From Thermoplasmatota archaeon (GTDB lineage: Archaea > Thermoplasmatota > JAKEGO01): a stretch of 55,371 nucleotides of DNA. The stretch covers positions 1 to 55,371 of the forward strand of contig JANQNK010000015.1 of the NCBI GenBank assembly GCA_028279595.1, read 5' to 3'. Within the stretch, counting starts at the first letter, position 1. Each line of letters opens with the position of its first letter. Positions 286 to 14,217 of the stretch are shown piece by piece. The notes beneath the pieces were generated by a model. That model was not told the DNA's origin. It was given only the letters and a program-made list of their open reading frames with translations, and ran no database searches. A program made the translations under genes and the position numbers.

Positions 286-1511
286 TCAACGAGCATTCCG
301 TCGACCTCGCCGTCATCGGGGCCGGCGCTGCCGGGCTCGCTGCTGCCGTCGCCGCAAAGCAGGCCGGTGTGGAGAACATCATTGTCATCGACCGCGAGCA
401 CTCCCCCGGTGGGATCCTGAAGCAATGCATCCATCCCGGCTTCGGGCTCTACCGTTACGAGGAGGAGTTGACTGGTCCTGAATACTTCCAGCGTCACGCC
501 ATGGACGTCATCCATCAGGGGATCAAGGTCATGTCCGACACGATGGTCCTCGACATGACGGCAGAGAAGGAACTGATACTGTCGAACACAGACGGTATCG
601 GGATCCTCAAAGCCAAGGCGATAATCCTCGCAATGGGATGCCGCGAGAGGACCAGGGACAACATCCTCATTCCGGGAACCAGACCTGCAGGGATATTCAC
701 AGCAGGTACTGCCCAGCAGATGATGAACGTCAGGAACCTTATGGTCGGGAAGAAGGTCGTCGTTCTCGGTTCTGGAGACATAGGGCTGATAATGGCCCGA
801 AGACTTGTGCTCGAGGGCGCCGAGGTCCCTACTGTCCTGGAGATCATGTCCTTCCCTGGAGGACTCCAGCGAAACATCACCCAATGTCTGGATGACTTCG
901 ATATCCCGCTTCATCTGAGCACGACAATTATCGAGATCAAAGGCAAGGGTCGGATATCTTCGGTCGTCGTCGCGACCATCGGCAAGGACGGAAAACCGCT
1001 CGAGAGGACAGAGAAGGAGATCGAGTGCGACACGCTTCTGCTCTCTGTCGGATTGATCCCCGAGAACGAGCTATCTCGAGGCGCTGGGGTCGAGATCGAC
1101 AACGTTACTAGCGGACCTATTGTCGACGCCAACTTCATGACCTCTATCCCAGGGATATTCTGCTGCGGTAACGCCCTCCACGTCCACGACGTCGTCGACT
1201 ACGTCTCCGACGAGGCCGAGGAGACGGGTTACGCCGTCTCCAGATGGCTTAGGAACGACGTCGAGGAGTTCGACGTCGATGTCAAGGCCGGCGACGGGAT
1301 CCAGTACGTCCTTCCTCACAGGATCGGACGTAGCAGTGCAACGCTCAAGATGAGAGTGACCGAGCCGGGACGCGATATCTCCATCGTCGGAAGGTCAGGT
1401 GAGGACGAGACATTCAGGAAGAATCTGCCGAGAGTAGCACCCTCAGAGATGATCATGATCGATGTTGGTAGAATTACTGGAGACGTACTCACTGTGGAGG
1501 TGGTCCGGTGA
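282..1511 (+). CDS. NAD(P)/FAD-dependent oxidoreductase (pyridine nucleotide-disulfide family, partner of the GlpA-like enzyme)
   Basis: Motifs VIGAGAAG, GGILKQCIHPGFG, ILAMGCRER, VLGSGDIG and GIFCCGN. The true start is ATG 282 (SD GAGGTG, coupled to the upstream stop), not 45. Confidence 0.9.
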   Translation: MINEHSVDLAVIGAGAAGLAAAVAAKQAGVENIIVIDREHSPGGILKQCIHPGFGLYRYEEELTGPEYFQRHAMDVIHQGIKVMSDTMVLDMTAEKELILSNTDGIGILKAKAIILAMGCRERTRDNILIPGTRPAGIFTAGTAQQMMNVRNLMVGKKVVVLGSGDIGLIMARRLVLEGAEVPTVLEIMSFPGGLQRNITQCLDDFDIPLHLSTTIIEIKGKGRISSVVVATIGKDGKPLERTEKEIECDTLLLSVGLIPENELSRGAGVEIDNVTSGPIVDANFMTSIPGIFCCGNALHVHDVVDYVSDEAEETGYAVSRWLRNDVEEFDVDVKAGDGIQYVLPHRIGRSSATLKMRVTEPGRDISIVGRSGEDETFRKNLPRVAPSEMIMIDVGRITGDVLTVEVVR

Positions 1512-1873
1512 CCAGGATGATCTGCATCGTCTGCCCCATCGGCTGCGAGATGGAAGTCACGATGGAGGGCGGGGTCGTCCTCGTTAAGGGGAACCAGTGT
1601 CCGAGGGGCATCGATTACGCTCAAGCCGAGATGACAGATCCGCGTAGAACATTGGCAACTACTGTCTACGTCCTCGGAGGAGCGAGACCTCTTGCGAGCG
1701 TCCGCGTCGACAACGTTCCCAAGGATGGAATGATGGAAGCGATGGCTGCCATAAGGAAGATCAATGTCCCCGCACCAGTGATAATGGGACAGGCCATCGC
1801 CGAGATCGAAGTGAGAGGGGAGATCTTCCCCGTTGTAGCTACATCGACTGTTCCCGGATATTATTTCGTCTGA
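1508..1873 (+). CDS. DUF1667-family CxxC metal-binding protein
   Basis: ICIVCPIGC...GNQCPRG...DPRRTLATTV. GTGA overlap with the upstream gene. This is the usual third gene of this oxidoreductase triad. Confidence 0.85.
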   Translation: MTRMICIVCPIGCEMEVTMEGGVVLVKGNQCPRGIDYAQAEMTDPRRTLATTVYVLGGARPLASVRVDNVPKDGMMEAMAAIRKINVPAPVIMGQAIAEIEVRGEIFPVVATSTVPGYYFV

Positions 1874-1927
1874 TCGGATGACATTCTAGAGGGATAGATT
1901 CAAAAAGGGTATGTCTCAGGGAACGTC

Positions 1928-2071
1928 ATGGGCAGGACGTATGTTGAGATTGATCTCGAATTGAAGGAGATACTGTTGTCGATAGGATTGGAGGGAGAAT
2001 CCATCAATGACATCATCTGGAGGATAGTTGACGATTCAGGTTACACTGAACTGATGGTAGACATGGAATGA
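1928..2071 (+). CDS. Small ribbon-helix-helix / antitoxin-like protein (47 aa; not in the ORF track)
   Basis: MGRTYVEIDLELKEILLSIGLEGESINDIIWRIVDDSGYTELMVDME shows the strand-helix-'GES..D.I.R'-helix pattern of archaeal RHH proteins. Confidence 0.55.
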   Translation: MGRTYVEIDLELKEILLSIGLEGESINDIIWRIVDDSGYTELMVDME

Positions 2072-2086
2072 TCGATAGGGTCTCGC

Positions 2087-2737
2087 TCAATTCTGAGGCA
2101 TCTCTGGTTTGACCATGATGCCAATTTCGGAGAGTTCGAGCGGCAACGGGTCCACCCGATGCTTGCTACCCCTCAGCTTGACGATCTGGATGCTCCTCAT
2201 GTTGGAGTCGATATCGAGCATGATGATGCCGTCGGAGACGTTCATGAGGAGCTGACTCGGTTCAGGAGCGACGACGTATACCATGCATCCGAGCTTCGTC
2301 AACGTCGAGATGCTATTGATCAGGAACGGTCCGAAGTTCGGTCCGAGCATCGCCTCGAAGAGGCCGACGTCGTCGAAGCAGACGCGGTCGAACTGTCCAG
2401 TGCTCACGGTCTCCTGTAGCATGGAGACGATGTCCGCGTTCGGGTTGTTGACGACCTCTGCAACGTCGATGATCGTGAAGTCTCCCTTGTCCATCACTTC
2501 CTTGTCGTAGAATCCCATTCTCTCAAGGTAGGCGAGAGAAACTTCCATTGGTTCTCTCAACGGAGTGACGTAGAGTACCTTCTCCTGGTTCCTGCAGGCG
2601 AACATCAATGATTGTAATACGAAAGTGGTCTTGCCAGCGCTTTCATCTCCCGTGATGAGAAGAGTTGACGGTCTGTAGAAGCCACCACCAAGGGCCGAAT
2701 CCAGGCCCGGAACCCCCGAATCGACGAGTTTGAGCAT
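2087..2737 (-). CDS. KaiC/RAD55-family RecA-superfamily ATPase (single domain)
   Basis: SGVPGLDSALGGG, Walker A GDESAGKT, Walker B VCFDD and C-terminal RSIQIVKLRGS. Start placed at MLKLVD; a TTTTTATA box lies just upstream on the minus strand. Confidence 0.85.
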   Translation of the reverse strand: MLKLVDSGVPGLDSALGGGFYRPSTLLITGDESAGKTTFVLQSLMFACRNQEKVLYVTPLREPMEVSLAYLERMGFYDKEVMDKGDFTIIDVAEVVNNPNADIVSMLQETVSTGQFDRVCFDDVGLFEAMLGPNFGPFLINSISTLTKLGCMVYVVAPEPSQLLMNVSDGIIMLDIDSNMRSIQIVKLRGSKHRVDPLPLELSEIGIMVKPEMPQN

Positions 2738-2889
2738 ATTGTTAAAACAGGAGTGGATTATAAAAAGGTTGCATGGTGGTTTGCTTCTTGGTTGGATTTG
2801 GATTTCTACGGGCCAGAGTCCTTTCGGTTGGACTCTGCAGCAGCCCGGAAGGATTAAAAGGGTCATAACTAATTGTAATTGGGGATTAA

Positions 2890-5598
2890 ATGAGAGGTGT
2901 CAATAAAATACTGCCAGCATTCATATTCATACTACTCATGTCCACACATACCTTTGTACTTGTAAGTGAGACAAATAATATTGAACATGAATCGCTTCCA
3001 ATCGGAAGTCCGATATCTGAAGATTCGGATGGAGATGGGATACCGGATGATGAGGATCTAATTGACGACGGAAATGCGGTTCTAATATTCTCAATTGATT
3101 ATTGTGAGATAGATCAAAATGCTGATGTTTGGTCAGACGGAGATCCCTATTTCAAGGTCTTTTTCGACCTTGATAATAATGGATCGTTTAATAGTGAAGA
3201 ACAATGGAAATCCAAGATGTTTGAGAATGTAGTTGTAGTCGATGATGAAGGATTTGATGATCTTGGCGCTTGGTGGATCGAAATCGGAATTGAAGATGAT
3301 ATTGACGAGCTATATTTCTGGATCTATGCATACGATGATGATAACGATGGTAATTATGAAGTTGCGGATATCAATCCTAATGCGAGTAGAACTTCAGTAG
3401 ATTTTATTTATGAGATCTCAGAATCGAATGATAATCCGGATAGGTATTACTTAGATGGGAGTGAAGATGGGCAATCGGAAATTGATGCATATATCGAATT
3501 TTCATTCCGTCTCAGGAAAGGTGTCACAATTGAAGAGATCTCTCCATCCAGTGGAGTTATATCAATGAATGAGGGTGAAACAACCTCACTCTCTATTGTT
3601 GATCCATTCATCCCATATTATCTTCCAGACACCTTTACCTATCTCTGGCTTTTCAATAACATATCAAGTAGTGATTGGATACCAATAAACGATACTGATT
3701 CGAACAATCAAACATTTGAATTGTTCGCAAACTACGGTTCTGCTGGAACTTATTTTATCGGTTGCATTATGTATTTCGAATCCTCACGCTACAATTACTG
3801 GTATTATGATATCTGTTTCTGGGAAGTGACAATTATCCATAATAATTCCGTTCCAGTAGCATCAATTACTATCGATTCAGATTATCTCCATCAGTTTGAG
3901 GACATTTCATTCTCGGGGCGGAATTCATTCGATCTAGATGGCGATGAATTGAATTACACATGGGATTTCGGCGATGGTTCAATCGGTTACGGAGTTGACG
4001 TTACGCACGTCTATACGATACCTGACGAATATTTCGTTAAATTGACAGTCGAAGATGACGAACTTGCCACGGATATTAAATTAAGGCCGGTGACGATCGA
4101 GCCGATCGATCTTTCTGCAGCAGAACATTGGGGCACAATTTCAAACGGGAGCACCGTTACCCTGAATACCGATTATAATAATTTCAATGTGGATATGGTA
4201 TCTGAATCGGTATTGATGCCCTTACCATTCGGATATACACTATCGATAAGAACGGGCTTCAAATCGACCATGTTACTAGAACATACTGGCCGTTGTACCT
4301 ATAGGCTGGAAATTAATGAGGATAAACGAGATGTGGAATTTGAAATACAATTGCTAAATAAGACTGATTATTACGAAATTTGGTATCGACCCTCCCTGCA
4401 ATTCACAATATCGATAATCGATTCAAATGAACAAGAGACCGAATTATGGTCAAATGAAACCTCTATTCCGTTGATGAATAACAATCAAGGACTCGATAAT
4501 GATGGAGAACCATTGATATCGATACCTACACTTTCACACGGAAGTGTAGACATATACACCTGGGACCAAATGAAACGAATCTACAAATCAAACGGTACAA
4601 TATACAATCACATTGGATCAATTAATCTTGGTACGATACCGGTTAATATTGCTCAAGTTGACATCTTTCAATTCATCAAAGCCTTAACGGGTTCAAATCC
4701 AATTACTAACACAATAATCAACATCGGAAACTTCTTTACCAACGTCTATATCGAGTCAGACCTTCTACTTGACACACAAATTCAGGACAGATTGGGTTTT
4801 TACATTCAGTCAACTGGGGACTCAAATTTAGAGAACGATTTTGTTTGGTGTGATAGCATTTCATCACATCCATCGTTCACTGTTTCCGGATCGAAAACTG
4901 ATTCAAAGTTCTATGGGATTATGAAGACTAAGTCCGAAGCTTCTCTTTCGCTCGGAGTATACTTCCATCTCAATCTTACTGAGAGTGGAAAAACAGCATA
5001 CGGATTTTACTCAACAATACAGGATAAAGGATTGATAATAGGTCTTCTCGATACTTTGCTAGAGGTCATTGAGACTGGATCTCTACCAAAGAAGGATTTC
5101 GTGATCAGAGAACCTCTCTGGGAATCCGGAGAAATTCAATCACTTCAGGATAGCACAGTATGGTATTGGGATTACCTCGATTATTCACACGAATTCATAA
5201 ATCATGCACCGGTTATCACAGTTTCTTCACCGTCCGAAGCAGTCTACGAGTTAAATGATACAATTCTTCTTGATTGGGACTCGTCTGACGAGGACGGAGA
5301 CACAATCGCTTATGAGGTATATTTAGATACCAACGAGAATCCCACGACTATAGTCGCGCAGGGTTCATCCATTGACTCATATGAAACTACAGATCTAGAA
5401 CCGGGAACATACTATTGGAAGGTAGTCGCGGATGATGGGGAATCTAGAACAGAATCAGAAATATATTCCTTCCAGATTCAAGGTGAATCCGCAAATAAAG
5501 ATAAATCCTCGGGTACACCAGGATTCGGTATAATAACCGTAGCCCTAGCTATGTCGCTATTAGTTATCGTCCAAAGAAGGAAATTCCGAAACAGATGA
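2890..5598 (+). CDS. Secreted PKD-domain surface protein with PGF-CTERM anchor
   Basis: Signal peptide, DSDGDGIPD Ca-binding-like motif, PKD motif FDLDGDELNYTWDFGDG, FN3/Ig-like domain near the C-terminus, and a TPGF + hydrophobic helix + RRKFRNR tail. AT-rich. Confidence 0.85.
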   Translation: MRGVNKILPAFIFILLMSTHTFVLVSETNNIEHESLPIGSPISEDSDGDGIPDDEDLIDDGNAVLIFSIDYCEIDQNADVWSDGDPYFKVFFDLDNNGSFNSEEQWKSKMFENVVVVDDEGFDDLGAWWIEIGIEDDIDELYFWIYAYDDDNDGNYEVADINPNASRTSVDFIYEISESNDNPDRYYLDGSEDGQSEIDAYIEFSFRLRKGVTIEEISPSSGVISMNEGETTSLSIVDPFIPYYLPDTFTYLWLFNNISSSDWIPINDTDSNNQTFELFANYGSAGTYFIGCIMYFESSRYNYWYYDICFWEVTIIHNNSVPVASITIDSDYLHQFEDISFSGRNSFDLDGDELNYTWDFGDGSIGYGVDVTHVYTIPDEYFVKLTVEDDELATDIKLRPVTIEPIDLSAAEHWGTISNGSTVTLNTDYNNFNVDMVSESVLMPLPFGYTLSIRTGFKSTMLLEHTGRCTYRLEINEDKRDVEFEIQLLNKTDYYEIWYRPSLQFTISIIDSNEQETELWSNETSIPLMNNNQGLDNDGEPLISIPTLSHGSVDIYTWDQMKRIYKSNGTIYNHIGSINLGTIPVNIAQVDIFQFIKALTGSNPITNTIINIGNFFTNVYIESDLLLDTQIQDRLGFYIQSTGDSNLENDFVWCDSISSHPSFTVSGSKTDSKFYGIMKTKSEASLSLGVYFHLNLTESGKTAYGFYSTIQDKGLIIGLLDTLLEVIETGSLPKKDFVIREPLWESGEIQSLQDSTVWYWDYLDYSHEFINHAPVITVSSPSEAVYELNDTILLDWDSSDEDGDTIAYEVYLDTNENPTTIVAQGSSIDSYETTDLEPGTYYWKVVADDGESRTESEIYSFQIQGESANKDKSSGTPGFGIITVALAMSLLVIVQRRKFRNR

Positions 5599-5602
5599 GA
5601 GA

Positions 5603-5630
5603 TGGTGGTAACCAAGGCAGCCTTATAAAG
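5603..5630 (+). promoter_or_regulatory. TGGT-N4-ACCA palindrome plus TATA box (unit A)
   Basis: TGGTGGTAACCA at 5603-5614 and TTATAAAG at 5623-5630. The same layout recurs at 5742-5768. Confidence 0.5.
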
Positions 5631-5650
5631 AAAAACCTCAGATGGAAAAT

Positions 5651-5715
5651 TGGTTGCGGGGACCCGAATCGCAAATGCGAATGCAACTCTCGAGACTCGC
5701 AACCACCTTCTTCTT
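5651..5715 (+). ncRNA. Candidate small hairpin RNA A
   Basis: TGGTTGCGGG (5651-5660) pairs with CTCGCAACCA (5696-5705), with an inner hairpin TCGCA-AA-TGCGA. It starts 28 nt after a TATA box and is followed by a pyrimidine tract. Confidence 0.45.
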
Positions 5716-5741
5716 AGGTTGGGGTTATAACCGGTGTATCT

Positions 5742-5768
5742 TGGTTTCCACCAAATTACGTATATAAC
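5742..5768 (+). promoter_or_regulatory. TGGT-N4-ACCA palindrome plus TATA box (unit B)
   Basis: TGGTTTCCACCA at 5742-5753 and TATATAAC at 5761-5768. Confidence 0.5.
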
Positions 5769-5789
5769 CACGAAAGGGATTGTAGAAAT

Positions 5790-5852
5790 TGGTTGCGGAG
5801 TCGACACGCAGATACGTGGCTATTACCTCTCCGCAACTATCTTCTTTTTCTT
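5790..5852 (+). ncRNA. Candidate small hairpin RNA B
   Basis: TGGTTGCGGAG (5790-5800) pairs with CTCCGCAACTA (5829-5839), with an inner hairpin CACG-N6-CGTG. It starts 29 nt after a TATA box and is followed by TCTTCTTTTTCTT. Confidence 0.45.
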
Positions 5853-5959
5853 GTTTCCGGAAGGATTAAGTGTCGAAGGTTCAATCCTTGAAATGGGACC
5901 ATCATTGGCAACCAAAGCTGAATATTGGGTTCGTTCAGGTGGTATCTCCTTACGAGGGA

Positions 5960-7114
5960 ATGGATATGGAAGAACGGGCAAAATCGCTAATCGAGGAACA
6001 TCAATTGGACAAGGACCTTTCAGGAATGGATTTGTCAGGTTGGGATTTCTCTGGAGCCGATCTGAGTGAGTGGAATCTGTCGAAATGTAAGTTCAATGGG
6101 GCAATTTTCTACGATCAGAGAGATCCGATCGATGACTCGCTAAAAACTGATCTTCGGAAGTCTAATCTTCAAGATGCCGAGTTCGAAGGAGCAGAAATGT
6201 CATATGCGGACCTCGGGGGAACAAACATCTTTCGAGCAGATTTCAAAGATTCTACATTGATCTATACTGCCTTCGATTTTTGTCAAGGACGATTGTCCCA
6301 CTTCGAAAATGCAAACCTTGGTGGCGCAGACTTCACTCGTTCGAACCTTGAAGGATCTTTCTTTACTCGAGCTCATTTATCTGAATCCATATTCGATAAA
6401 TCGAACTTAAATGAGGCAAATTTTGAGTATTCAAATTTAAAGGGCGCATCGTTAAACAAGGCGAAAATGAGGGATGCCAATTTACGATATACCGAGATGA
6501 ATAGCAAGACCGAGGTGCAAGGTATTGACTGGTTCAATTGTGTCATTGATGGTTCAACTCTGTACTATACTAAGGTAGATGAAATTGTCGTCAATGAAAG
6601 GAAATTCAATCGCGGTAAGAAGAATAACGATCGAGATCAGATGATTGAGCAAGCCGGGGAAGCTCGTGAAGTCTATGTCAAATTGAAAAACCATTTCAAA
6701 CAAGCAGGTCAATACGAAACTTCTGGCAAGTATTATTATCGCGAAAAGTTGATGGAGAGTCACGTCCACCGGTTCGCAAAGAATTGGACGAATTGGTTAT
6801 GGAATAGTATCTATCGTTATAGTGCTGGATACGGTGAGAAACCCCACTATATACTTGCCTGGTGGGCAATTATCATCACACTCTTTGGTACAATTTACTG
6901 GCTATCGGGCGGATTACATCGAGCTGGAGAGTCAGTAAGTATCCTGGATTCATATTACTTCAGTGTCGTCACTTTCACGACCCTCGGGTTCGGTGATATC
7001 CAACCTGCAGCCTCCATGGATTACATTAAGGTCTGCGCAATGACCGAAGCGCTCCTCGGAACTATGCTGATGGCACTATTCATTCTTACCTTTGGTCGAA
7101 AAATGATGAGATAA
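5960..7114 (+). CDS. Pentapeptide-repeat protein with C-terminal 2-TM potassium-channel domain
   Basis: A(D/N)(L/F)xx pentapeptide run, a helical linker, then YFSVVTFTTLGFGDIQP (pore helix and filter) flanked by TM helices. Start probably ATG 5960 (SD GAGGG). Confidence 0.85.
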   Translation: MDMEERAKSLIEEHQLDKDLSGMDLSGWDFSGADLSEWNLSKCKFNGAIFYDQRDPIDDSLKTDLRKSNLQDAEFEGAEMSYADLGGTNIFRADFKDSTLIYTAFDFCQGRLSHFENANLGGADFTRSNLEGSFFTRAHLSESIFDKSNLNEANFEYSNLKGASLNKAKMRDANLRYTEMNSKTEVQGIDWFNCVIDGSTLYYTKVDEIVVNERKFNRGKKNNDRDQMIEQAGEAREVYVKLKNHFKQAGQYETSGKYYYREKLMESHVHRFAKNWTNWLWNSIYRYSAGYGEKPHYILAWWAIIITLFGTIYWLSGGLHRAGESVSILDSYYFSVVTFTTLGFGDIQPAASMDYIKVCAMTEALLGTMLMALFILTFGRKMMR

Positions 7115-7118
7115 TTCA

Positions 7119-8759
7119 TCAAATGTCAATCGGACTTCCATATTCAGGAATGATAATGTCGACCTGACTGCCGTCTTCCGATTGGATCTCTCGCGCAATG
7201 ACTTCAAACTCCTCTGGATGTTCCGTATGGATCGGAATGAGTTTTTCGGGAGCGAGGAGCTCGATCAGTCTCTTGAGCTCCGGTCTTGACGCGTGTCCGG
7301 AGACGTGGGCTCTGTCCACGCACGGATAATCCTTCTCTTCGTCGCGATCGTATCCGATCCCGAACTTGTCGAGCCAATTGATCAGACGTTTCTCGTCGAT
7401 CTCCATCTCGTCCGAGAAAGGTTCACACTGTGCCTTGATGAAGAATGAACCCGGTATATTCCCCTCTTCGTCGGCGAAGTCGAAGATCTGACCCAGGTCG
7501 AAGAATGATAGCATCATGACGTACTTGGACGGTTCTGCCACGATCTGACTTGCGATGATGCCGTTCTCGTAATGTTCAAGGTCCGGCTCATTGTTCTTCC
7601 AGTCTATCTCGTATCCAACTTCATGCTTGTAGCCCGTGTAATCCGCAGGAGAATACAGACAGGATCCCTTCCTCTTCAGGAAGACCTTCACATCCTCGGG
7701 CAACTCCTCCCCGAGCTTGTTGAGAAGGTAAGCGAGTCGCGAGTTGATGACGAAAGTGCGTCCTCTTGCATCATTCCTGACGGCTTCCAGGATGGTCTCG
7801 TACCTGGTGGTGTCCTTCCAGGCGAAGTCGACAAAGACGATACCTTCCGTCTCCGAGATCTTGTTCGAAATGGATTCGCAGATGTCCTTTTCTGTAATCT
7901 GCTTGTTCGAGTCGACACGGGTGCCTTCACAGAGCATGACGTCGATCGCTCCGACCTTCTCCACGTACTCTTCTATCGTCATCCCTTTGTTGCCGTGGAA
8001 ACGGATGTCGCCAGTGTAGAGTATCCTCTTTCCTTCCGCTTCCACCACGAACGAGGCTGCTCCCGGGACGGAGTGGTCCACTTCTATCAGTTTGACCTTG
8101 ACGTCGCCCAGGGAGACGGTCTCTCCGTCCTCCATTGTGTTTACTTCCCTTTCCACGGATTCCTTCTTCAGTTTGAGAGCTCCGGGGAAGGTGGAGCGGT
8201 CTCCACTGGTGGTGACTTCTACCAATTCGGAAGTGATCGCTTTCGTTCTGAAAGTGGTGACGTCGTCTATGGCTCTGACGAGTGTTTCCGTTACTTCCGA
8301 GCAGTACAATGGTATCTGGTGGTGGAGGTAGCCGATGGCTCCGGTGTGGTCGAGATGAGCGTGGCTGAGGAAGATCGCGTCGACGAAGGGTTTTCCATGT
8401 TTGTTGGAGTAGTCTTCCGCTGAGATGATTTCAGAGTTGACGAGGGGGGAGTCTGAGGTGAGGGTGCGGGAGGATGTTGGAGAGACCTCATCTATGCCTC
8501 TGGGGCGGATGAGGCCTTCACGGTAGATACCGTCAATGTGGGGGAGGACTCCGATGGTTAATTTGTCGGGGAGGTCGGTGTTCGTGCGGATGCCGAGGAA
8601 TTCGGCGAAGTACTGGGACTCGTAGCCCATGCGGGAACCGAAGTCGAGGAGGATTCTAGTTTGAGCTGTTTCAATTAGGGGTTTATTACCCCCAATTTCA
8701 GAAATTCCTCCGAACATACTAATCGACATCAAATTACTACCAATTATGGAATTACTCAT
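7119..8759 (-). CDS. Metallo-beta-lactamase / beta-CASP nuclease (RNase J-like)
   Basis: GGISEIGGN, LLDFG, SHAHLDHTG, VDHSVPGA, YTGDIRFHG, EGT, HVSGHA and PIHTEH motifs. The start could be 8729. Confidence 0.85.
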   Translation of the reverse strand: MSNSIIGSNLMSISMFGGISEIGGNKPLIETAQTRILLDFGSRMGYESQYFAEFLGIRTNTDLPDKLTIGVLPHIDGIYREGLIRPRGIDEVSPTSSRTLTSDSPLVNSEIISAEDYSNKHGKPFVDAIFLSHAHLDHTGAIGYLHHQIPLYCSEVTETLVRAIDDVTTFRTKAITSELVEVTTSGDRSTFPGALKLKKESVEREVNTMEDGETVSLGDVKVKLIEVDHSVPGAASFVVEAEGKRILYTGDIRFHGNKGMTIEEYVEKVGAIDVMLCEGTRVDSNKQITEKDICESISNKISETEGIVFVDFAWKDTTRYETILEAVRNDARGRTFVINSRLAYLLNKLGEELPEDVKVFLKRKGSCLYSPADYTGYKHEVGYEIDWKNNEPDLEHYENGIIASQIVAEPSKYVMMLSFFDLGQIFDFADEEGNIPGSFFIKAQCEPFSDEMEIDEKRLINWLDKFGIGYDRDEEKDYPCVDRAHVSGHASRPELKRLIELLAPEKLIPIHTEHPEEFEVIAREIQSEDGSQVDIIIPEYGSPIDI

Positions 8760-8887
8760 AGTAATATAGGTTTAATGGTACTAGTTATTCATTCAGGATA
8801 GTCTTAATAATGGGATCCGAACAATTACTCAAATTTACATTTACATTAGATATCAACAGAACGTATAGGAATATCTTTAATGGGTAA

Positions 8888-9430
8888 ATGGAATTAAATG
8901 TCATGATAGATCCTGCGGTTTCCGCAATAATTGGTGTTGTTATCGGATTCACTCTACATGAAATCGCAAGGTCTTTCCGAGAACATCGGAAGTTCCAAGA
9001 AGAACGTAATGCTGCGCGGATCCTAGTGAATCTTGAGGTTAAACGTAATATACGACTTTTACAATTATTTTGGAATGACATTGCTGCATATGACGAACCT
9101 CAATGGTATCCAAAGATACATGGTTCATTACCGAATTGGAGTTGGGAGGTTTGGAATAGTCAGTTGAAGATTGCTCCTAAGATCTTTAATAGGTCGGAAT
9201 TAGAGCGATTATATGTTCATTATGGGGATTTAGAGAGAATTCGAGATTGTTTATTAGATTTGAGTATTACTGAACCGGGGGGAGAAATGGTTCTCCCTAA
9301 TGTTGCAGATAGTGCAGGGGCTATTAAATTCCAAGGAACTATCCGGGGGGGGCTTCATAGTTGGGATGAATGTAGGTTTATTATAAGACGACTTTTAAAG
9401 AATAAAAGAGGTGTACTATCGATACAATGA
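8888..9430 (+). CDS. Hypothetical protein with N-terminal TM helix
   Basis: 180-aa ORF with AVSAIIGVVIGFTL followed by a charged helix. AT-rich. Confidence 0.65.
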   Translation: MELNVMIDPAVSAIIGVVIGFTLHEIARSFREHRKFQEERNAARILVNLEVKRNIRLLQLFWNDIAAYDEPQWYPKIHGSLPNWSWEVWNSQLKIAPKIFNRSELERLYVHYGDLERIRDCLLDLSITEPGGEMVLPNVADSAGAIKFQGTIRGGLHSWDECRFIIRRLLKNKRGVLSIQ

Positions 9431-9524
9431 TTACATTTCACCATCCAATAAGGTTAGTTATAAGACCTAATAACTTGATAATATTACAGGATAATGCTGA
9501 TAATGAATTAAAATTGTTGGAGGT

Positions 9525-9968
9525 ATGCAATTGGACTTTGAAGAGAAGTTGTTTAGAGAACAAAGTTTGAGTAATCAAATACAAACAAAAAAGCAAGAGA
9601 GTCAAACAGCAATCGCTTGTGAAACGATGCGACAAGAAACAGAAAAAATAAGACTAGAAATCGAGAAGGAAAAATTACTACAGGAAAGGGATAAATTTAA
9701 ACTTGAGCTGACTAAAAGTAAATTAGATTCATTTCCTATGACAATATTAGGGCGGATATTAATGGTTTTAGGTGTTGGAATGATTACTTCTTCAATAGCA
9801 TTATCGGGGGTGGTTTCTCAATTTAATAGTAATCTTGTTCAGGTAATTTTTATTGCTGCCGTGGTTATTCTTATTGGAACTCTTGTCTTTTTAAAAGGGT
9901 ATTTTATGATGAATCGCGATGAGACTGAACTTAAGGAGATGTATAAGAAGAAAATGAAAAAATTCTAA
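9525..9968 (+). CDS. Hypothetical coiled-coil plus 2-TM membrane protein
   Basis: SD GGAGGT, an E/K/Q-rich N-terminal half and two hydrophobic helices. Confidence 0.7.
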   Translation: MQLDFEEKLFREQSLSNQIQTKKQESQTAIACETMRQETEKIRLEIEKEKLLQERDKFKLELTKSKLDSFPMTILGRILMVLGVGMITSSIALSGVVSQFNSNLVQVIFIAAVVILIGTLVFLKGYFMMNRDETELKEMYKKKMKKF

Positions 9969-10116
9969 ATTAGATGTCGATTAATCGAAGTTATACAATG
10001 ATCAAATAATTTCTATTATCGAAAATACATTCCGGGATGACCATTTGTAGATATGGAACTTTCACTACCTTTACAGTACAAACAGAATCTCATATGGATG
10101 GGATTCTCTGCTCCCA

Positions 10117-10923
10117 TTGTTCATACTCACTAGAATAGTGAAGAATAGCACGTATGTATTTATACATTTTATTCTATTGATTAATGTGCCATCAGATATT
10201 GAAATTAAAAAGATGCTACCATCATGCAATATAAACAAAGGAATGATTAGGGAAATTGAGAGTTTATTAAATGATAAAATTCAAGACGAGATAATTGGAG
10301 ATAGAAATCCTGAAAGATTAAATATCTCACAAAGTATATACATATACGATAATTTTGGCACTGAAGAAATGGATAGCATAGATGATTATTCATTATTACG
10401 CTTTTCAGACAATACTAGATCAATTAGTATTCATTACGAAATATGGGATAGTGATCAATCGTTATTTCTCGGGACAATTAAAATTCATTTTAGTACGTGG
10501 AAATCAGGTACATATGTAGATATTCGATGTTATTCAGAGAGACCACGCCGGAAAGCCAGCAACATATTCCAGATGATAAAAGAATTAACTGAAAAACATC
10601 GAAATGATCATTATAGATGGCACGAGGATACTGATTCTGGATCTGTAGTGTGGTTCTTAGCCTATGTCTCCTTTTTACTTTCAATAATCCTGTTGATAAA
10701 TCGTTCGTATGTTTTAGGAATTTTATTCATTCTTATAGCTGTTACCTATTATTTGTTCCAACGGAATGGTAAGCAATTACATCCATACTCAATGTTTGAT
10801 AATCCAATTAATCACGAGAAATTAAAATTACACGAGATCAGAAGACAAATTGAAATTGGAATTATTTTTTGTCTACTTGGAATAATTGGCGCGGTAATCA
10901 TTATGGAATTCGTTTATAGTTAA
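10117..10923 (+). CDS. Hypothetical membrane protein (about 3 C-terminal TM helices); start uncertain
   Basis: 268-aa AT-rich ORF with hydrophobic segments near the C-terminus. The real start may be a downstream GTG or ATG. Confidence 0.6.
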   Translation: MFILTRIVKNSTYVFIHFILLINVPSDIEIKKMLPSCNINKGMIREIESLLNDKIQDEIIGDRNPERLNISQSIYIYDNFGTEEMDSIDDYSLLRFSDNTRSISIHYEIWDSDQSLFLGTIKIHFSTWKSGTYVDIRCYSERPRRKASNIFQMIKELTEKHRNDHYRWHEDTDSGSVVWFLAYVSFLLSIILLINRSYVLGILFILIAVTYYLFQRNGKQLHPYSMFDNPINHEKLKLHEIRRQIEIGIIFCLLGIIGAVIIMEFVYS

Positions 10924-11066
10924 AAATCCTAATTTGAGATTAATTAGTTTTTACCACAGACACCTTATATAATGTACGCAAGATTGCGGTTATATAAATG
11001 ATTAGGTATAATCAGATATTCCCCAATCCTCTTAAAGACATGCAATAATCATGGTTTGGTGATGAA

Positions 11067-12938
11067 ATCCGGCTCTACTCTGGTTCTACAGAACAGTTGA
11101 TAGCTGATACAGTTCAAAATCAAATCGCTGATAAACTGAAATCATCTTTCTTTCATCATTTTAGATATTATCCATCTCCCTCAGAGATCAATTCATGGAG
11201 AAATTCAATACGTGCAATTTCAATGGTATTTCGAGAAGCTGAATTAACTGACCACGGTGTCATTCTTGAGCAACAACTTCCACTTACATCAAAAAGGCTC
11301 GACTGTCTCATTTGCGGTCGAGATAGTGATCAATCTGATTATGCTATAATTATTGAATTGAAACAATGGGAACGATGTAAATCAGCAATGGGTGATAATG
11401 AAGTTCTAACGTTCATTGGCGGTGGGGAACGGGAAGTTCTTCATCCATCGGCTCAAGTTGGTCAGTATCAGATGTACCTCGAGGATACTCATACTGCATT
11501 CTATGAAGGTAACTCTCCAGTCCAGCTCAAGTCTTGTAGTTACTTACATAATTACCAACGTTTTGGTGCTGATCACCTCTTTGATCCGAAATTTGATGCA
11601 ATTCTCGAACGATTCCCATTGTTTACCGGTGATGACGTTCCAAGATTGATGAGTTATCTCAGATCAAGCCTTGATTCAGGGGCTGGATTAGAGGTTCTGA
11701 AACGAATCGAAGAAAGTAAATATCGTCCAAGTAAAAAGCTGATGGACCATGTTGGTCAGATAATTAAAGGAAATCCTGAGTATATTCTGATAGATGAGCA
11801 GCTTGTCGTATACGATAAGGTCCTATCAATTGCACGGAGCGGTTTTCACGATAGAAAAAAATCTGTTCTAATAATCAAAGGAGGCCCTGGGACCGGGAAA
11901 TCAGTAATCGCTATCAATCTTATGGCCGATCTTTTACTCAAGGGTTATAATGCTCATTATGCAACTGGATCTCGTGCGTTCACTCAAACGCTCCGAAAAA
12001 TAATCGGAACCCGGGGTGCGGTTCAATTCAAGTATTTCAACAGCTACAAGGATGCTGATTATAATTCTGTAGATGTCCTGATTTCGGATGAAGCTCATAG
12101 AATTCGAGAATTCAGTCATAGTAGATTCACAAAGAAGAAGGACCGAACGAATGTACCACAGATACAGGAATTAATCGACGCAGCAAAAGTATCTGTTTTC
12201 TTCATTGATGATAAGCAGATCGTCCGTCCAAATGAAATTGGTTCGGTAGATTTGATACGAGAGTATGCCGAGAAGAATGAATGCGAATTATCAGAATATC
12301 AGCTGGAAGCACAATTTCGATGTGCTGGATCCGACGCATTCGTGAACTGGATTAACAACACACTGGGAATAGAAAGAACAGCAAACGTATTATGGGATTC
12401 AGCTGATGAATTTGAGTTTAAGATTTTCGATTCACCACTCGATCTTGAAAATGCAATCATGGAGAAGCATAATCAGAATTTCACAGCCCGTATGTCAGCT
12501 GGTTTCTGTTGGAAATGGTCGACAAAAGCAAAACCTGATGGAACTCTTCAAGATGATATCGTCATTGGAGATTATAAACGACCATGGGATGCTCGTCCTG
12601 AAACAAAGGGTTTGAATCTGAATATTCCTCCTGCAGACCTGTGGGCATATGATCCGAATGGGATCAATCAAATCTGATGTGTCTATACAGCTCAAGGATT
12701 TGAGTTTGACTATATTGGAGTGATATGGGGTCTAGATCTCCAGTATAACTTTAAGACACAAACATGGGAAGGTCATAAAAATGAATCTCATGATACGATG
12801 GTAAAACGTAGCAAGGATAAGTTTACTGACCTAGTTAAGAACACATATCGGGTTCTCCTCAGTCGAGGATTAAAAGGCTGCTATGTACATTTTCTTGATG
12901 AAGATACCGAGAAGTTTATCAGAACCAGGATAGAATGA
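11067..12938 (+). pseudogene. DUF2075-family (Schlafen-group-like) nuclease-helicase, interrupted by an in-frame TGA
   Basis: RLDCLICG...IIIELKQW nuclease-like motif, HPSAQV, Walker A GGPGTGKS, DEAHR and QFRCAGS. TGA at 12675-12677 sits in frame within NQI*CVYTAQGFEFDYIGVIWG. The reading frame continues upstream of 11097 to ATC-RLYSGS at 11067, behind SD GGTGA. Confidence 0.8.
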
Positions 12939-12947
12939 TAATAAAAT

Positions 12948-13292
12948 TCATCGACGATTATACTTAGTTGCATTACCTTTGGACAGCGCTATGGGATACT
13001 TTACTTCATTCAATTGAAGTTTCTCTTCAACTGCCATCTCGATGTCGATATCAAGTTTGTCTGATAACCTGAGTAAGTATATCATTATGTCACCCAGTTC
13101 TTGAGTCACATGGGACATATCCTCCTCTGAGAGATTAGTGGACTGCTCTGCGGTTAACCACTGAAATAACTCAAGAAGCTCTCCAGCTTCTCCGGATAAT
13201 GCCATTGCAAGATTTTTAGGTGTATGGAATTGATCCCAATCGCGACTCTTTGCGAACTCATCGAGTTTCTGCTGATAATGATTTAAGTCCAT
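12948..13292 (-). CDS. MazG-like nucleotide pyrophosphohydrolase (dCTP pyrophosphatase / RS21-C6 type)
   Basis: RDWDQFHTPKNLAMALSGEAGELLELFQW...ELGDIMIYLLRL...KYP. Confidence 0.9.
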   Translation of the reverse strand: MDLNHYQQKLDEFAKSRDWDQFHTPKNLAMALSGEAGELLELFQWLTAEQSTNLSEEDMSHVTQELGDIMIYLLRLSDKLDIDIEMAVEEKLQLNEVKYPIALSKGNATKYNRR

Positions 13293-13329
13293 ATATGTCC
13301 CATTATTATAACGACACATCTACAAAGAT

Positions 13330-14217
13330 TTATCGTTCAAAGCCATGAATTCTACGATGTTCTCGTAGATAGAGTGGATCAGGTTGATATCTTTCGTCAT
13401 CATTTTTCCTTAACTTATTTCCCTCAAATCGAGTAATTTCGTCATAATTCGGGTCACCACGAATCCAATCTTTAATGATTATTGATAGGTCATCTTTAAT
13501 GGCGAAGAGCCCGCCATCAAGGGCCCAATGATGAAGTCTACATAGAGCAATCCCGTTGCGTAAATCATCAGCGCCATTCTTTGATTTCGGATATATGTGA
13601 GCTGATTCTACTTCTGGATGACCCGCATTAGTAAATCGAGATATACCACATACAGCACATTGGTTTTGGTAAATTTCCTTGATCCCTCGCCCGAATGCAT
13701 AGCTTCTTGCTTTTCTCTTGGAAGACGTCATTGCCGACGGTTCTTCAAGAATTGGGGGAGTATCATCATGCATTAATTGCTCGTATTGCTGATAACTTTC
13801 ATCTGGACTTAATGCATCGAACTTTAAAGCGAACTCGTACACCATGAATTGATCTTTTCTCACATATTCCCAATTAAGTACAGTTAAAATTCCGAGGTAT
13901 TTATAGAAACCACCTTTATCATCTTCTCTAAATCCAAATATCGGTGTGCTCCGCTCATTCGCTAACATTAGACCACGATTGGCTGCCGTTTCAATTTGAT
14001 CCTTGTTTTGACCTTCACCGTCGTAATAAAGAATATCACCTTCAATGCGATCAGAATATGGTCCATGTGCTCGGGAGAAAAGGATAATATATTGAGTTCC
14101 GTCCGACCATCGTCTTTGTGTTATTCCCTTTATTCTACTTCCGAATTGTGTCTTGAATATATTCTCAATATCATCTTTATTGTATTCGGATCCAACTGAT
14201 AAATCCACTTGAATCAT
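13330..14217 (-). CDS. SRA/YDG-like domain plus HNH endonuclease (putative modification-dependent, Type IV restriction enzyme)
   Basis: N-terminal YSDRIEGDILYYDGEGQNKDQ...ANRGL (SRA-like). C-terminal CAVCG...ESAHIYP...DDLRNGIALCRLHHWALDGG (HNH). Confidence 0.75.
   Translation of the reverse strand: MIQVDLSVGSEYNKDDIENIFKTQFGSRIKGITQRRWSDGTQYIILFSRAHGPYSDRIEGDILYYDGEGQNKDQIETAANRGLMLANERSTPIFGFREDDKGGFYKYLGILTVLNWEYVRKDQFMVYEFALKFDALSPDESYQQYEQLMHDDTPPILEEPSAMTSSKRKARSYAFGRGIKEIYQNQCAVCGISRFTNAGHPEVESAHIYPKSKNGADDLRNGIALCRLHHWALDGGLFAIKDDLSIIIKDWIRGDPNYDEITRFEGNKLRKNDDERYQPDPLYLREHRRIHGFER

What the first reader, a model, noticed from the sequence alone, without database searches (positions are those of the whole stretch)
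5603..5852. Twin promoter + small hairpin RNA units with a shared palindromic operator
Seen: two units about 139 nt apart, each with TGGT-N4-ACCA, 7-8 nt, a TATA box, then a start 28-29 nt after the box begins (AAATTGGTTGCGG). Each forms a 10-11-bp terminal stem with compensating changes (GCGGG/CTCGC versus GCGGAG/CTCCGC), a small inner hairpin with unrelated sequence, and a pyrimidine-rich terminator-like tract. No convincing ORF lies here. Inference: two co-regulated 50-55-nt RNAs with constant scaffold and variable interior (guide-, antitoxin- or decoy-like), lying in an accessory island near a beta-CASP nuclease. Alternative: unit A read on the minus strand (TTGCGATTCGGGTCCCCGCAACCA) resembles a tRNA 3' end, so these could be integration-site relics.
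Basis: partly seen in the sequence, partly recalled or inferred. Interest (0 to 1): 0.7.

Follow-up and report, generated by a model that had tools for sequence, protein, structure and literature searches.

The report
Orphan twin promoter-hairpin RNA units
Two neighbouring copies of a small module (regulator site, archaeal promoter, stable RNA hairpin, stop signal) lie in an acquired DNA segment of an uncultured marine archaeon; they probably make two small non-coding RNAs, but no relatives, targets or expression data were found, so their job is unknown.

Summary
At 5603-5715 and 5742-5858 (+) there are two units 139 nt apart. Each has TGGT-N4-ACCA, 7-8 nt, a TATA box, an identical 13-mer at the predicted start, a 10-11 bp terminal stem and a pyrimidine tract.

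The conserved blocks are perfect, while the stretches between them are no more alike than shuffled sequence. That points to selection on the blocks, not a recent copy.

The palindrome is a real promoter element of this archaeal class. It occurs at 8, 5 and 5 places in the three genomes held, with zero control matches. Elsewhere it precedes protein genes, many for small winged-helix-like or surface proteins.

The tRNA/att alternative is not supported: no host tRNA match above chance, no integrase and no tRNA nearby.

No homologue turned up in Rfam, the own genome, 400 genomes of the phylum, or the phage, plasmid, viral, metagenome and genome collections. No antisense target was found.

Both units and the upstream surface-protein gene are bracketed by a 13-bp direct repeat. 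They sit in a segment missing from the nearest relative.

Most likely (about 0.4) these are two orphan small RNAs made from regulon-type promoters. The main rival (about 0.3) is a tandem promoter and attenuating leader for the downstream channel gene. Expression is untested.

The scan has noted other orphan tandem small-RNA pairs in other archaea, none related to this one.

The parts
5603..5614 (+). Unit A palindrome TGGTGGTAACCA (regulator site just upstream of BRE/TATA)
   Evidence: the same TGGT-N4-ACCA + TATA module occurs at 8 places in this genome and 5 each in the two class relatives, controls 0
5623..5629 (+). Unit A TATA box TTATAAA
   Evidence: lies 8 nt after the palindrome and 17 nt (box end to 13-mer) before the conserved 13-mer, the same layout as unit B
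5647..5659 (+). Unit A conserved 13-mer AAATTGGTTGCGG (predicted start region and 5' arm)
   Evidence: exact copy only here and at 5786 in window and genome
5651..5705 (+). Unit A hairpin: 10-bp terminal stem (5651-5660 with 5696-5705), 35-nt interior with a 4-bp inner hairpin (5669-5672 with 5677-5680)
   Evidence: -20.8 kcal/mol, z -3.1; pair counts
5706..5715 (+). Unit A pyrimidine tract CCTTCTTCTT (weak terminator-like; no T run of 3 or more)
   Evidence: T runs and pyrimidine tracts are 2-9 times enriched after stop codons in this genome
5724..5733 (+). Unit B distal palindrome GGTTATAACC
   Evidence: aligns with the distal site of the conserved promoter at G000 C11:84470 and in relative G002
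5742..5753 (+). Unit B proximal palindrome TGGTTTCCACCA
5761..5767 (+). Unit B TATA box TATATAA
5786..5798 (+). Unit B conserved 13-mer AAATTGGTTGCGG
5790..5839 (+). Unit B hairpin: 11-bp terminal stem (5790-5800 with 5829-5839), 28-nt interior with a 4-bp inner hairpin (5805-5808 with 5815-5818)
   Evidence: -20.3 kcal/mol, z -3.2, 0 of 200 shuffles as stable
5840..5858 (+). Unit B pyrimidine/T tract with a T5 run at 5845-5849 (the first T run of 4 or more after the upstream gene's stop)
2845..2857 (+). Left copy of the 13-bp direct repeat CCGGAAGGATTAA
   Evidence: 0 of 2000 shuffles of the two boundary zones share a word of 13 or more
5857..5869 (+). Right copy of the 13-bp direct repeat, starting at the last bases of unit B's tract
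2890..5598 (+). Upstream gene: 902-aa PKD-domain surface protein with a PGF + hydrophobic + basic C-terminal tail; its stop lies 4 nt before unit A
5960..7114 (+). Downstream gene: pentapeptide-repeat protein fused to a potassium-channel pore domain

Best explanation
These are two paralogous short transcription units on the + strand.

Proposed mechanism:
1. A lineage-specific regulator, probably one of the small winged-helix-like paralogues that sit behind the same motif, binds the TTGGT-N4-ACCAA palindrome just upstream of BRE/TATA. That is an activator-type position.
2. Transcription starts 22-25 nt after the TATA box, at the base of the hairpin.
3. The RNA folds at once into a 10-11 bp terminal helix that encloses a 28-35 nt interior differing completely between the units.
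4. The RNA ends in the pyrimidine/U tract. This signal is strong for B (T5) and weak for A, so some A transcripts may run into B.
5. The products would be about 55-70 nt non-coding RNAs with a constant helix-plus-tail scaffold (protein binding or stability) and unit-specific interiors.

Shown: the sequence elements, their non-random conservation, the genome-wide and class-wide use of the promoter module, the thermodynamic stability, and the absence of coding signal.

Inferred: transcription, start and end points, the strand, and any trans-acting function.
For: - Identical element order and spacing in both units.
- Perfect conservation of the 13-mer, CGCAAC, the palindrome half-sites and the TATA box, with null-level identity between these blocks.
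- The palindrome + TATA module is enriched: 26 loose matches against 4-14 in shuffles. Strict matches number 8, 5 and 5 distinct sites in the three genomes of the class, with 0 controls.
- The unit-B promoter matches a conserved promoter at E 3e-7, and the similarity ends at the TATA box.
- Both hairpins are more stable than shuffles.
- Both G-U pairs lie on the + strand and would be A-C mismatches on the other strand.
- The conserved 3' block is read in different frames by the only shared ORFs, so the constraint is not on a protein.
- T runs mark gene ends in this genome.
- Unit A is followed directly by unit B's promoter, so it leads no gene.
- The units end exactly at the boundary of a repeat-bracketed segment.
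Against: - No expression data.
- Only two copies exist, so covariation cannot be tested.
- No homologue anywhere searched.
- No target found.
- All nine further promoters of this type examined in the two relatives run into an open frame within about 10-55 nt of the TATA box. Those with a convincing downstream gene in this genome do likewise.
- Unit A has no T run.
- The palindrome and the TATA-like sequences are nearly symmetric, so a minus-strand reading of unit A is not excluded.
Confidence: 0.4

Rival explanations
1. Cis-acting reading. The units are tandem regulon promoters for the downstream pentapeptide-channel gene. Each hairpin plus pyrimidine tract acts as a 5'-terminal stabiliser or premature-termination (attenuator) element, and the same hairpins also terminate the upstream surface-protein gene.
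For: - All nine promoters of this class examined in the two relatives precede an open frame, several of them membrane or secreted proteins. The clearer cases in this genome do the same, and the downstream gene here is a membrane channel.
- No strong independent TATA box lies between 5858 and the start codon.
- Unit A lacks a T run, so read-through is likely.
- The first T run of 4 or more after the upstream gene's stop is the one in unit B.
Against: - The leader would be about 170 nt with a T5 tract straight after a -20 kcal/mol hairpin. In the relatives an open frame starts within about 10-55 nt of the TATA box.
- A pure terminator or attenuator needs structure, not an invariant 13-mer and CGCAAC.
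- The 13-bp repeat suggests the units arrived with the upstream gene, not with the channel gene.
- A palindrome (TTGGCAACCAA, 5905-5915) followed by AATATT lies 34 nt before the start codon and could be the channel gene's own weak promoter.
Confidence: 0.3
2. DNA-level element. The inverted repeats TTGGTTGCGG...CCGCAACCA are protein-binding or recombination sites. Their outer bases equal the half-sites of the promoter palindrome. They may be connected with the insertion of the repeat-bracketed segment, and the RNA fold is incidental.
For: - The arm ends TTGGT and ACCA(A) are the consensus half-sites of the class-wide palindrome.
- The units lie at the edge of a segment bracketed by a significant 13-bp direct repeat that is missing from the closest relative.
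Against: - The arms are 35-45 bp apart, unlike the 4-bp spacing at all other sites.
- No recombinase or transposase domain was found among the island ORFs scanned.
- No target-site duplication flanks the hairpins.
- Only two copies exist in the genome.
- The G-U pairs favour an RNA-level constraint on one strand.
Confidence: 0.12
3. Decayed remnant. This is an old duplicated promoter fragment without present function, and the shared blocks are leftovers.
For: No homologue and no detectable target. The region is an acquired, fast-changing segment.
Against: Neutral decay would not leave 13/13, 6/6 and both palindrome half-sites intact while the sequence between them reaches shuffled-null identity.
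Confidence: 0.1
4. Leaderless micro-ORFs. Each unit encodes a 26-codon peptide that starts at TTG at the predicted transcription start (5650-5730 and 5789-5869).
For: Both frames start at the predicted start site, are exactly 26 codons long and begin with the same three residues.
Against: - The peptides share nothing beyond the residues encoded by the 13-mer.
- The conserved 3' bases are read in different frames.
- No family match.
- From general knowledge, TTG is a poor start for leaderless translation.
Confidence: 0.05
5. tRNA 3'-end relics that mark an integration (att) site.
For: The arm ...CCCCGCAACCA (minus strand of unit A) looks like a tRNA acceptor 3' strand with CCA. Sequence look-ups in the scan's notes share a few short words with bacterial initiator tRNA notes.
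Against: - The best local alignments to all 42 host tRNAs score 11-14, within the shuffled null whose maxima are 14-16.
- The host initiator tRNA ends CCCCGCTACCA, not CAACCA.
- There is no tRNA gene in the window and no integrase domain among the island ORFs scanned.
- The ACCA is base-paired inside the hairpin.
- Both units carry promoters.
Confidence: 0.03

Closest known systems
Lineage-specific intergenic archaeal sRNAs with their own promoter and U-tract end (for example Methanosarcina mazei and Haloferax volcanii sRNAs; from general knowledge, and compare scan notes e1-5425936 and e1-4519008 on other archaea)
   Same: Intergenic, no ORF, own BRE/TATA-type promoter, a stable hairpin, a pyrimidine/U tail, in tandem paralogous copies, and no Rfam family.
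   Different: Only two copies in one genome. No conservation in relatives, so no covariation support. The RNA is very short (about 55-70 nt), starts inside the helix, and has no expression evidence.
5'-terminal stem-loop stabilisers and promoter-proximal attenuators (ompA 5' UTR type in bacteria; from general knowledge)
   Same: The hairpin lies at the extreme 5' end of the predicted transcript, is followed by a termination-prone tract, and sits upstream of a gene.
   Different: Two copies, each with its own promoter. The stem sequence is invariant, not only the structure. Unit A leads no gene. Not demonstrated for archaea of this group.
Type III toxin-antitoxin RNA arrays (ToxI/ToxN type; from general knowledge)
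   Same: Tandem RNA units upstream of a gene in an island that also carries defence-like genes (AbiO/Nhi-like helicase, HNH).
   Different: ToxI repeats are near-identical 36-nt units under one promoter, directly followed by an endoribonuclease toxin gene. Here the interiors are unrelated, each unit has a promoter, and the next gene is a channel protein.
tRNA acceptor minihelices and tRNA-derived att sites
   Same: GGTTGCG...CGCAACC + A + CC in unit A resembles a 7-bp acceptor stem with a discriminator base and part of CCA.
   Different: No cloverleaf, no similarity to host tRNAs above chance, no integrase found, and unit B lacks the CC.

Membership tests
Any Rfam 15 family | Covariance-model score at or above the gathering threshold | tested here: not met
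   no match in the window; with E up to 10 only two chance-level matches, both outside the units.
tRNA gene or tRNA-derived att site | Cloverleaf tRNA, or an exact or near-exact copy of a host tRNA 3' end, next to an integrase | tested here: not met
   0 tRNAs in the window; best alignment scores lie within the shuffled null; no integrase domain in the island ORFs scanned. The genome is 86% complete, so a missing tRNA cannot be excluded.
Box C/D sRNA | C box RUGAUGA near the 5' end and D box CUGA near the 3' end | tested here: not met
   Read directly/: neither UGAUGA nor CUGA occurs in either unit. No Rfam hit.
Box H/ACA sRNA | ACA/ANA box directly 3' of the lower stem, and a K-turn or K-loop in the upper stem | tested here: not met
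   Sequence: the stems are followed by ACC (A) and AUC (B). The upper stems are 4 bp with no G-A tandem. No Rfam hit.
Type III TA antitoxin RNA (ToxI-like) | Near-identical short tandem repeats under one promoter, immediately upstream of an endoribonuclease toxin gene | tested here: not met
   interiors at null identity; a promoter in front of each unit; the next gene is a pentapeptide-channel protein; no PADLOC hit for it.
CRISPR mini-array or crRNA-like RNA | Direct repeats flanking a spacer, with cas genes nearby | tested here: not met
   The arms are inverted, not direct. The beta-CASP neighbour scores 58 bits against a cut-off of 800 for the type VII Cas14 model. The two unnamed ORFs of 180 and 268 aa downstream of the beta-CASP gene match nothing.
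Integron attC site | Outer core sites RYYYAAC and GTTRRRY, extrahelical bases, and an IntI integrase | tested here: not met
   By inspection the arms read GGTTGCG...CGCAACC, the opposite order of GTT and AAC, with perfect stems. No integrase found.
Stand-alone archaeal intergenic sRNA (generic class) | Own promoter | tested here: met
   Motif level only: palindrome + TATA with regulon-type spacing.
Stand-alone archaeal intergenic sRNA (generic class) | Discrete transcript with defined ends | not testable with these tools
Stand-alone archaeal intergenic sRNA (generic class) | Conservation with compensatory changes in relatives | tested here: not met
   No copy in the 2 class relatives, in 150 phylum genomes by covariance model, or in 400 by pattern. 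Between the two units there is one compensatory pair, not significant.

The most novel reading that the evidence does not exclude
The units are founding members of an undescribed class of very short archaeal RNAs. They would have a fixed acceptor-stem-like helix (GGUUGCG...CGCAACC-A-CC in unit A) and exchangeable interiors, be switched on by a class-specific regulator, and be carried as cargo of a mobile surface-protein cassette. Possible roles are a tRNA-end mimic or decoy for an RNA-processing or tRNA-targeting enzyme, or a guide-like scaffold RNA.
Probability: 0.08. Interest if true: 0.65.

Novelty: new member of a known kind. Interest (0 to 1): 0.3.

Why it matters
If the two RNAs are real, they would be a compact example of small non-coding RNAs wired into a lineage-specific archaeal regulon and moved between genomes together with a surface-protein gene. 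This lineage is a barely sampled class of Thermoplasmatota, with only three genomes held. The more robust by-product is the regulon itself: a TGGT-N4-ACCA palindrome, often doubled about 21 nt apart, sits just upstream of TATA boxes across the class, in front of small winged-helix-like proteins, a response regulator and large surface proteins. As it stands, the twin units are an orphan without expression data, so their value is that of a lead for metatranscriptome mapping rather than a finding that changes a field.

Tried and rejected
- **Rfam.** Gathering thresholds on the whole window and E up to 10 on 5400-6100: nothing relevant.
- **Exact-pattern scans for the scaffold.** The 7 viral, 13 metagenome and 10 genome-collection stretches returned were all chance: bacterial or phage contexts, coding sequence or plain terminators, none with the promoter. 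The best-looking one lies inside a membrane-protein gene.
- **Pattern search in 400 genomes of the phylum.** Two chance hits only.
- **Covariance model from the two units.** Only the two units themselves scored, in the own genome, in 20 relatives and in 150 phylum genomes.
- **blastn against phages and plasmids.** No match.
- **Synteny route.**
  - The channel protein's nearest homologue is only 45% identical.
  - The channel paralogue in the own genome sits inside an operon without such units.
  - The surface-protein homologue in G022 (42% identity) has no units downstream.
- **tRNA comparison.** Negative.
- **Antisense-target scans.** The interiors against the window, and the whole RNAs against the start regions of the island genes, did no better than shuffles. 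A whole-genome duplex scan timed out.
- **Island-flanking repeats.** None convincing.
- **Bacterial-type promoter and terminator scan.** Uninformative for an archaeon.
- **Literature search for the palindrome sequence.** Nothing relevant.
- **Motifs checked by eye and rejected.** K-turn, C/D box, H/ACA, attC, IS200/IS605-type hairpins and replication-origin boxes.

Full report
**What is there**

The 361-nt gap between a 902-aa PKD-domain surface-protein gene (2890-5598, +) and a pentapeptide-repeat/potassium-channel gene (5960-7114, +) holds two units in tandem on the + strand.

- Unit A: palindrome TGGTGGTAACCA (5603-5614), 8 nt, TTATAAA (5623-5629), the 13-mer AAATTGGTTGCGG (5647-5659), a hairpin (stem 5651-5660 with 5696-5705) and CCTTCTTCTT (5706-5715).
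- Unit B: a distal palindrome GGTTATAACC (5724-5733), a proximal palindrome TGGTTTCCACCA (5742-5753), 7 nt, TATATAA (5761-5767), the same 13-mer (5786-5798), a hairpin (5790-5800 with 5829-5839) and a pyrimidine tract with a T5 run (5840-5858).
- The 13-mers are 139 nt apart.

**Is it more than chance?**

- The exact 13-mer occurs only at these two places in the window. With up to one mismatch it occurs only there in the 2.29-Mb genome, with zero control matches.
- The hairpins fold at -20.8 and -20.3 kcal/mol, z -3.1 and -3.2.
- Conservation between the units is block-wise.
  - The 13-mer is 13/13, CGCAAC 6/6, the palindrome half-sites 8/8, and the TATAA core and CTTCTT are shared.
  - The TATA-to-start stretch (10 identical, shuffled mean 10.4) and the hairpin interior (21, shuffled mean 20.5) are no more alike than shuffled sequence.
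  - A recent duplication would keep everything and neutral decay would erase everything, so this pattern argues for selection on the blocks.
- The stem comparison gives 7 invariant pairs, 2 wobble changes, 1 full G-C to A-U swap and no broken pair. With two sequences this cannot reach significance.

**The palindrome is a real promoter element**

- TGGT-N4-ACCA placed 5-10 nt before a TATA box occurs at 8 distinct places in this genome, 5 in the same-family genome G001 and 5 in the same-order genome G002. Reversed-pattern controls gave zero.
- A looser form gives 26 sites against 4-14 in shuffles.
- Many sites are doubled, with a second palindrome about 21 nt upstream.
- The unit-B promoter, from its distal palindrome through the TATA box, is 84% identical over 49 nt (E 3e-7) to a promoter at C11:84470. 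That promoter is itself conserved in G002, and the similarity stops at the TATA box.
- Because the site lies upstream of BRE/TATA, an activator-type role is more likely than a classical operator. This is an inference from where known archaeal activators bind.
- In this genome and in both relatives, the module otherwise precedes protein genes. These are several 100-125-aa proteins with weak, sub-threshold winged-helix matches, a response regulator, and large secreted or membrane proteins. In the relatives an open frame starts within about 10-55 nt of the TATA box.
- The two units are the only instances followed by no ORF.

**Strand and coding**

- The + strand is favoured. Both units have the full promoter layout there, and both G-U pairs would become A-C mismatches on the other strand.
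- A minus-strand reading of unit A is not excluded. The distal palindrome GGTTATAACC could act as a TATA-like box, and there is a T5 run after the hairpin on that strand.
- The ORFs that cross the region have no family match.
- Both units contain a 26-codon frame starting with TTG at the predicted start. The peptides share only the residues encoded by the 13-mer, and the conserved 3' block is read in different frames. The constraint is therefore on nucleic acid, not on protein.

**Setting**

- The genome has 57% G+C, while 2000-14000 has 35-46%.
- Earlier notes of this scan call the organism an uncultured marine Thermoplasmata archaeon. Its class has only three genomes in the held set.
- In G001, the homologues of the 121-aa gene (1508-1873), the KaiC-like ATPase (2087-2866) and the beta-CASP nuclease (7119-8759) are direct neighbours, with only a small unrelated gene between the last two. 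The surface-protein gene, the units and the channel gene are therefore an insertion here.
- A 13-bp direct repeat, CCGGAAGGATTAA, lies at 2845-2857 and 5857-5869. It brackets exactly the surface-protein gene plus both units. None of 2000 shuffles of the two boundary zones shares a word that long. I noticed this repeat after the fact, so it deserves caution. It suggests the units travelled with the surface-protein gene.
- The beta-CASP protein is RNase J-like but far below every curated cut-off. Its relatives at 50-55% identity are scattered over different families. Nothing links it to the units.
- Further right lie an AbiO/Nhi-like DUF2075 helicase and an HNH protein.

**Search for relatives and targets**

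- Searches for relatives found nothing:
  - Rfam gave nothing, and no tRNA lies in the window.
  - Exact-pattern scans of viral, metagenome and genome collections returned only chance hits.
  - A pattern search of 400 genomes of the phylum found nothing beyond two chance hits.
  - A covariance model built from the two units found nothing else in the own genome, in 20 relatives or in 150 further phylum genomes.
  - blastn against phages and plasmids found nothing.
- Searches for targets found nothing:
  - Short exact matches to the rest of the genome are at chance level.
  - The interiors against the window, and the whole RNAs against the start regions of the island genes, showed no pairing better than shuffles.
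- The synteny route gave no help:
  - The channel protein's best homologue is 45% identical.
  - The nearest surface-protein homologue (42%, G022) has no such units downstream.

**The tRNA/att alternative**

- The minus-strand arm of unit A ends ...CCCCGCAACCA, which recalls a tRNA acceptor 3' strand.
- None of the 42 host tRNAs aligns better than shuffled units: best scores are 11-14, while null maxima are 14-16.
- The host initiator tRNA ends CCCCGCTACCA.
- The ACCA is paired inside the hairpin.
- No integrase or tRNA gene was found nearby.
- This alternative is not supported, with the caveat that the genome is 86% complete.

**How it most likely works**

1. My best reading (0.4) is two short, independently promoted RNAs. 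Regulator-dependent initiation would occur at the base of the helix, followed by immediate folding into a terminal helix with a unit-specific interior. The RNA would end in the pyrimidine/U tract, efficiently for B and weakly for A. T runs do mark gene ends in this genome: T5 is present after 5.4% of long ORFs against 0.6% inside them.
2. The main rival (0.3) is that the same promoters feed the channel gene through an attenuating leader. This fits the regulon's liking for membrane and surface proteins. It does not explain the invariant stem sequence, the promoter-only unit A, or the link with the upstream gene implied by the direct repeat. The two readings are not exclusive, since short products and read-through could coexist.
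3. Lesser rivals are a DNA-level protein-binding or recombination element (0.12), a functionless remnant (0.1), micro-ORFs (0.05) and a tRNA relic (0.03).

**Comparison with known systems**

The units behave like the generic class of lineage-specific archaeal intergenic sRNAs. They meet none of the defining features tested for C/D, H/ACA, ToxI-type, CRISPR-like, attC or tRNA-derived elements. The guide, antitoxin or decoy ideas remain pure speculation.

**Verdict**

There is no family and no homologues, and function and expression are unknown. Interest is modest. The class-wide palindrome regulon is the firmer by-product.

Noticed in passing
G000 C1:53350-53376, C9:33626-33652, C13:42064-42088, C18:8407-8433, C18:400471-400497, C20:5195-5219, C11:84470-84519; also G001 and G002: A class-wide promoter module: the palindrome TGGT(A/T)AxxACCA, often doubled about 21 nt apart, ends 7-9 nt before the TATA box. 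It precedes several 100-125-aa winged-helix-like paralogues (probable self-regulated factors), a response regulator, tiny conserved proteins and roughly 980-aa secreted proteins. I found no published description of it.
   Followed up: partly
window 2845-2857 and 5857-5869: A 13-bp direct repeat CCGGAAGGATTAA brackets the PKD surface-protein gene plus both hairpin units (0 of 2000 shuffles reach 13). It may be the scar of a cassette insertion by microhomology or site-specific recombination. No recombinase lies inside.
   Followed up: partly
window 1508-8759 compared with L059 (G001:C181): In the same-family genome, the homologues of the 121-aa gene, the KaiC-like ATPase and the beta-CASP nuclease are adjacent. 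Here a 4.2-kb insert (surface protein, units, channel gene) separates KaiC and beta-CASP. These shared genes are 44-46% G+C here but lie in 66% G+C DNA in G001.
   Followed up: partly
window 7119-8759 (-): A divergent RNase J-like beta-CASP protein, far below all curated cut-offs. Relatives at 50-55% identity are scattered over several Thermoplasmatota families in both low- and high-G+C DNA, which suggests horizontal movement. A second, 37%-identical copy lies at G000 C4:142078-143598.
   Followed up: no
window 5861-5890 and 5905-5926: Between unit B and the channel gene lie a 7-bp-stem hairpin (AAGGATT...AATCCTT) and a palindrome TTGGCAACCAA followed 5 nt later by AATATT, 34 nt before the start codon. 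This could be a weak third promoter of the same style for the channel gene.
   Followed up: no
window 11097-12677 (+) and 13330-14217 (-): The DUF2075/Schlafen-type helicase matches the AbiO and Nhi defence models (E 4.5e-15 and 3.6e-14), and the neighbouring protein matches an HNH defence model.
   Followed up: partly
G000 C11:84560-84815 and L004 (G002:C124): The promoter most like unit B's drives a conserved pair of tiny genes (about 32 and 51 codons) in both genomes. Neither matches a protein family.
   Followed up: no
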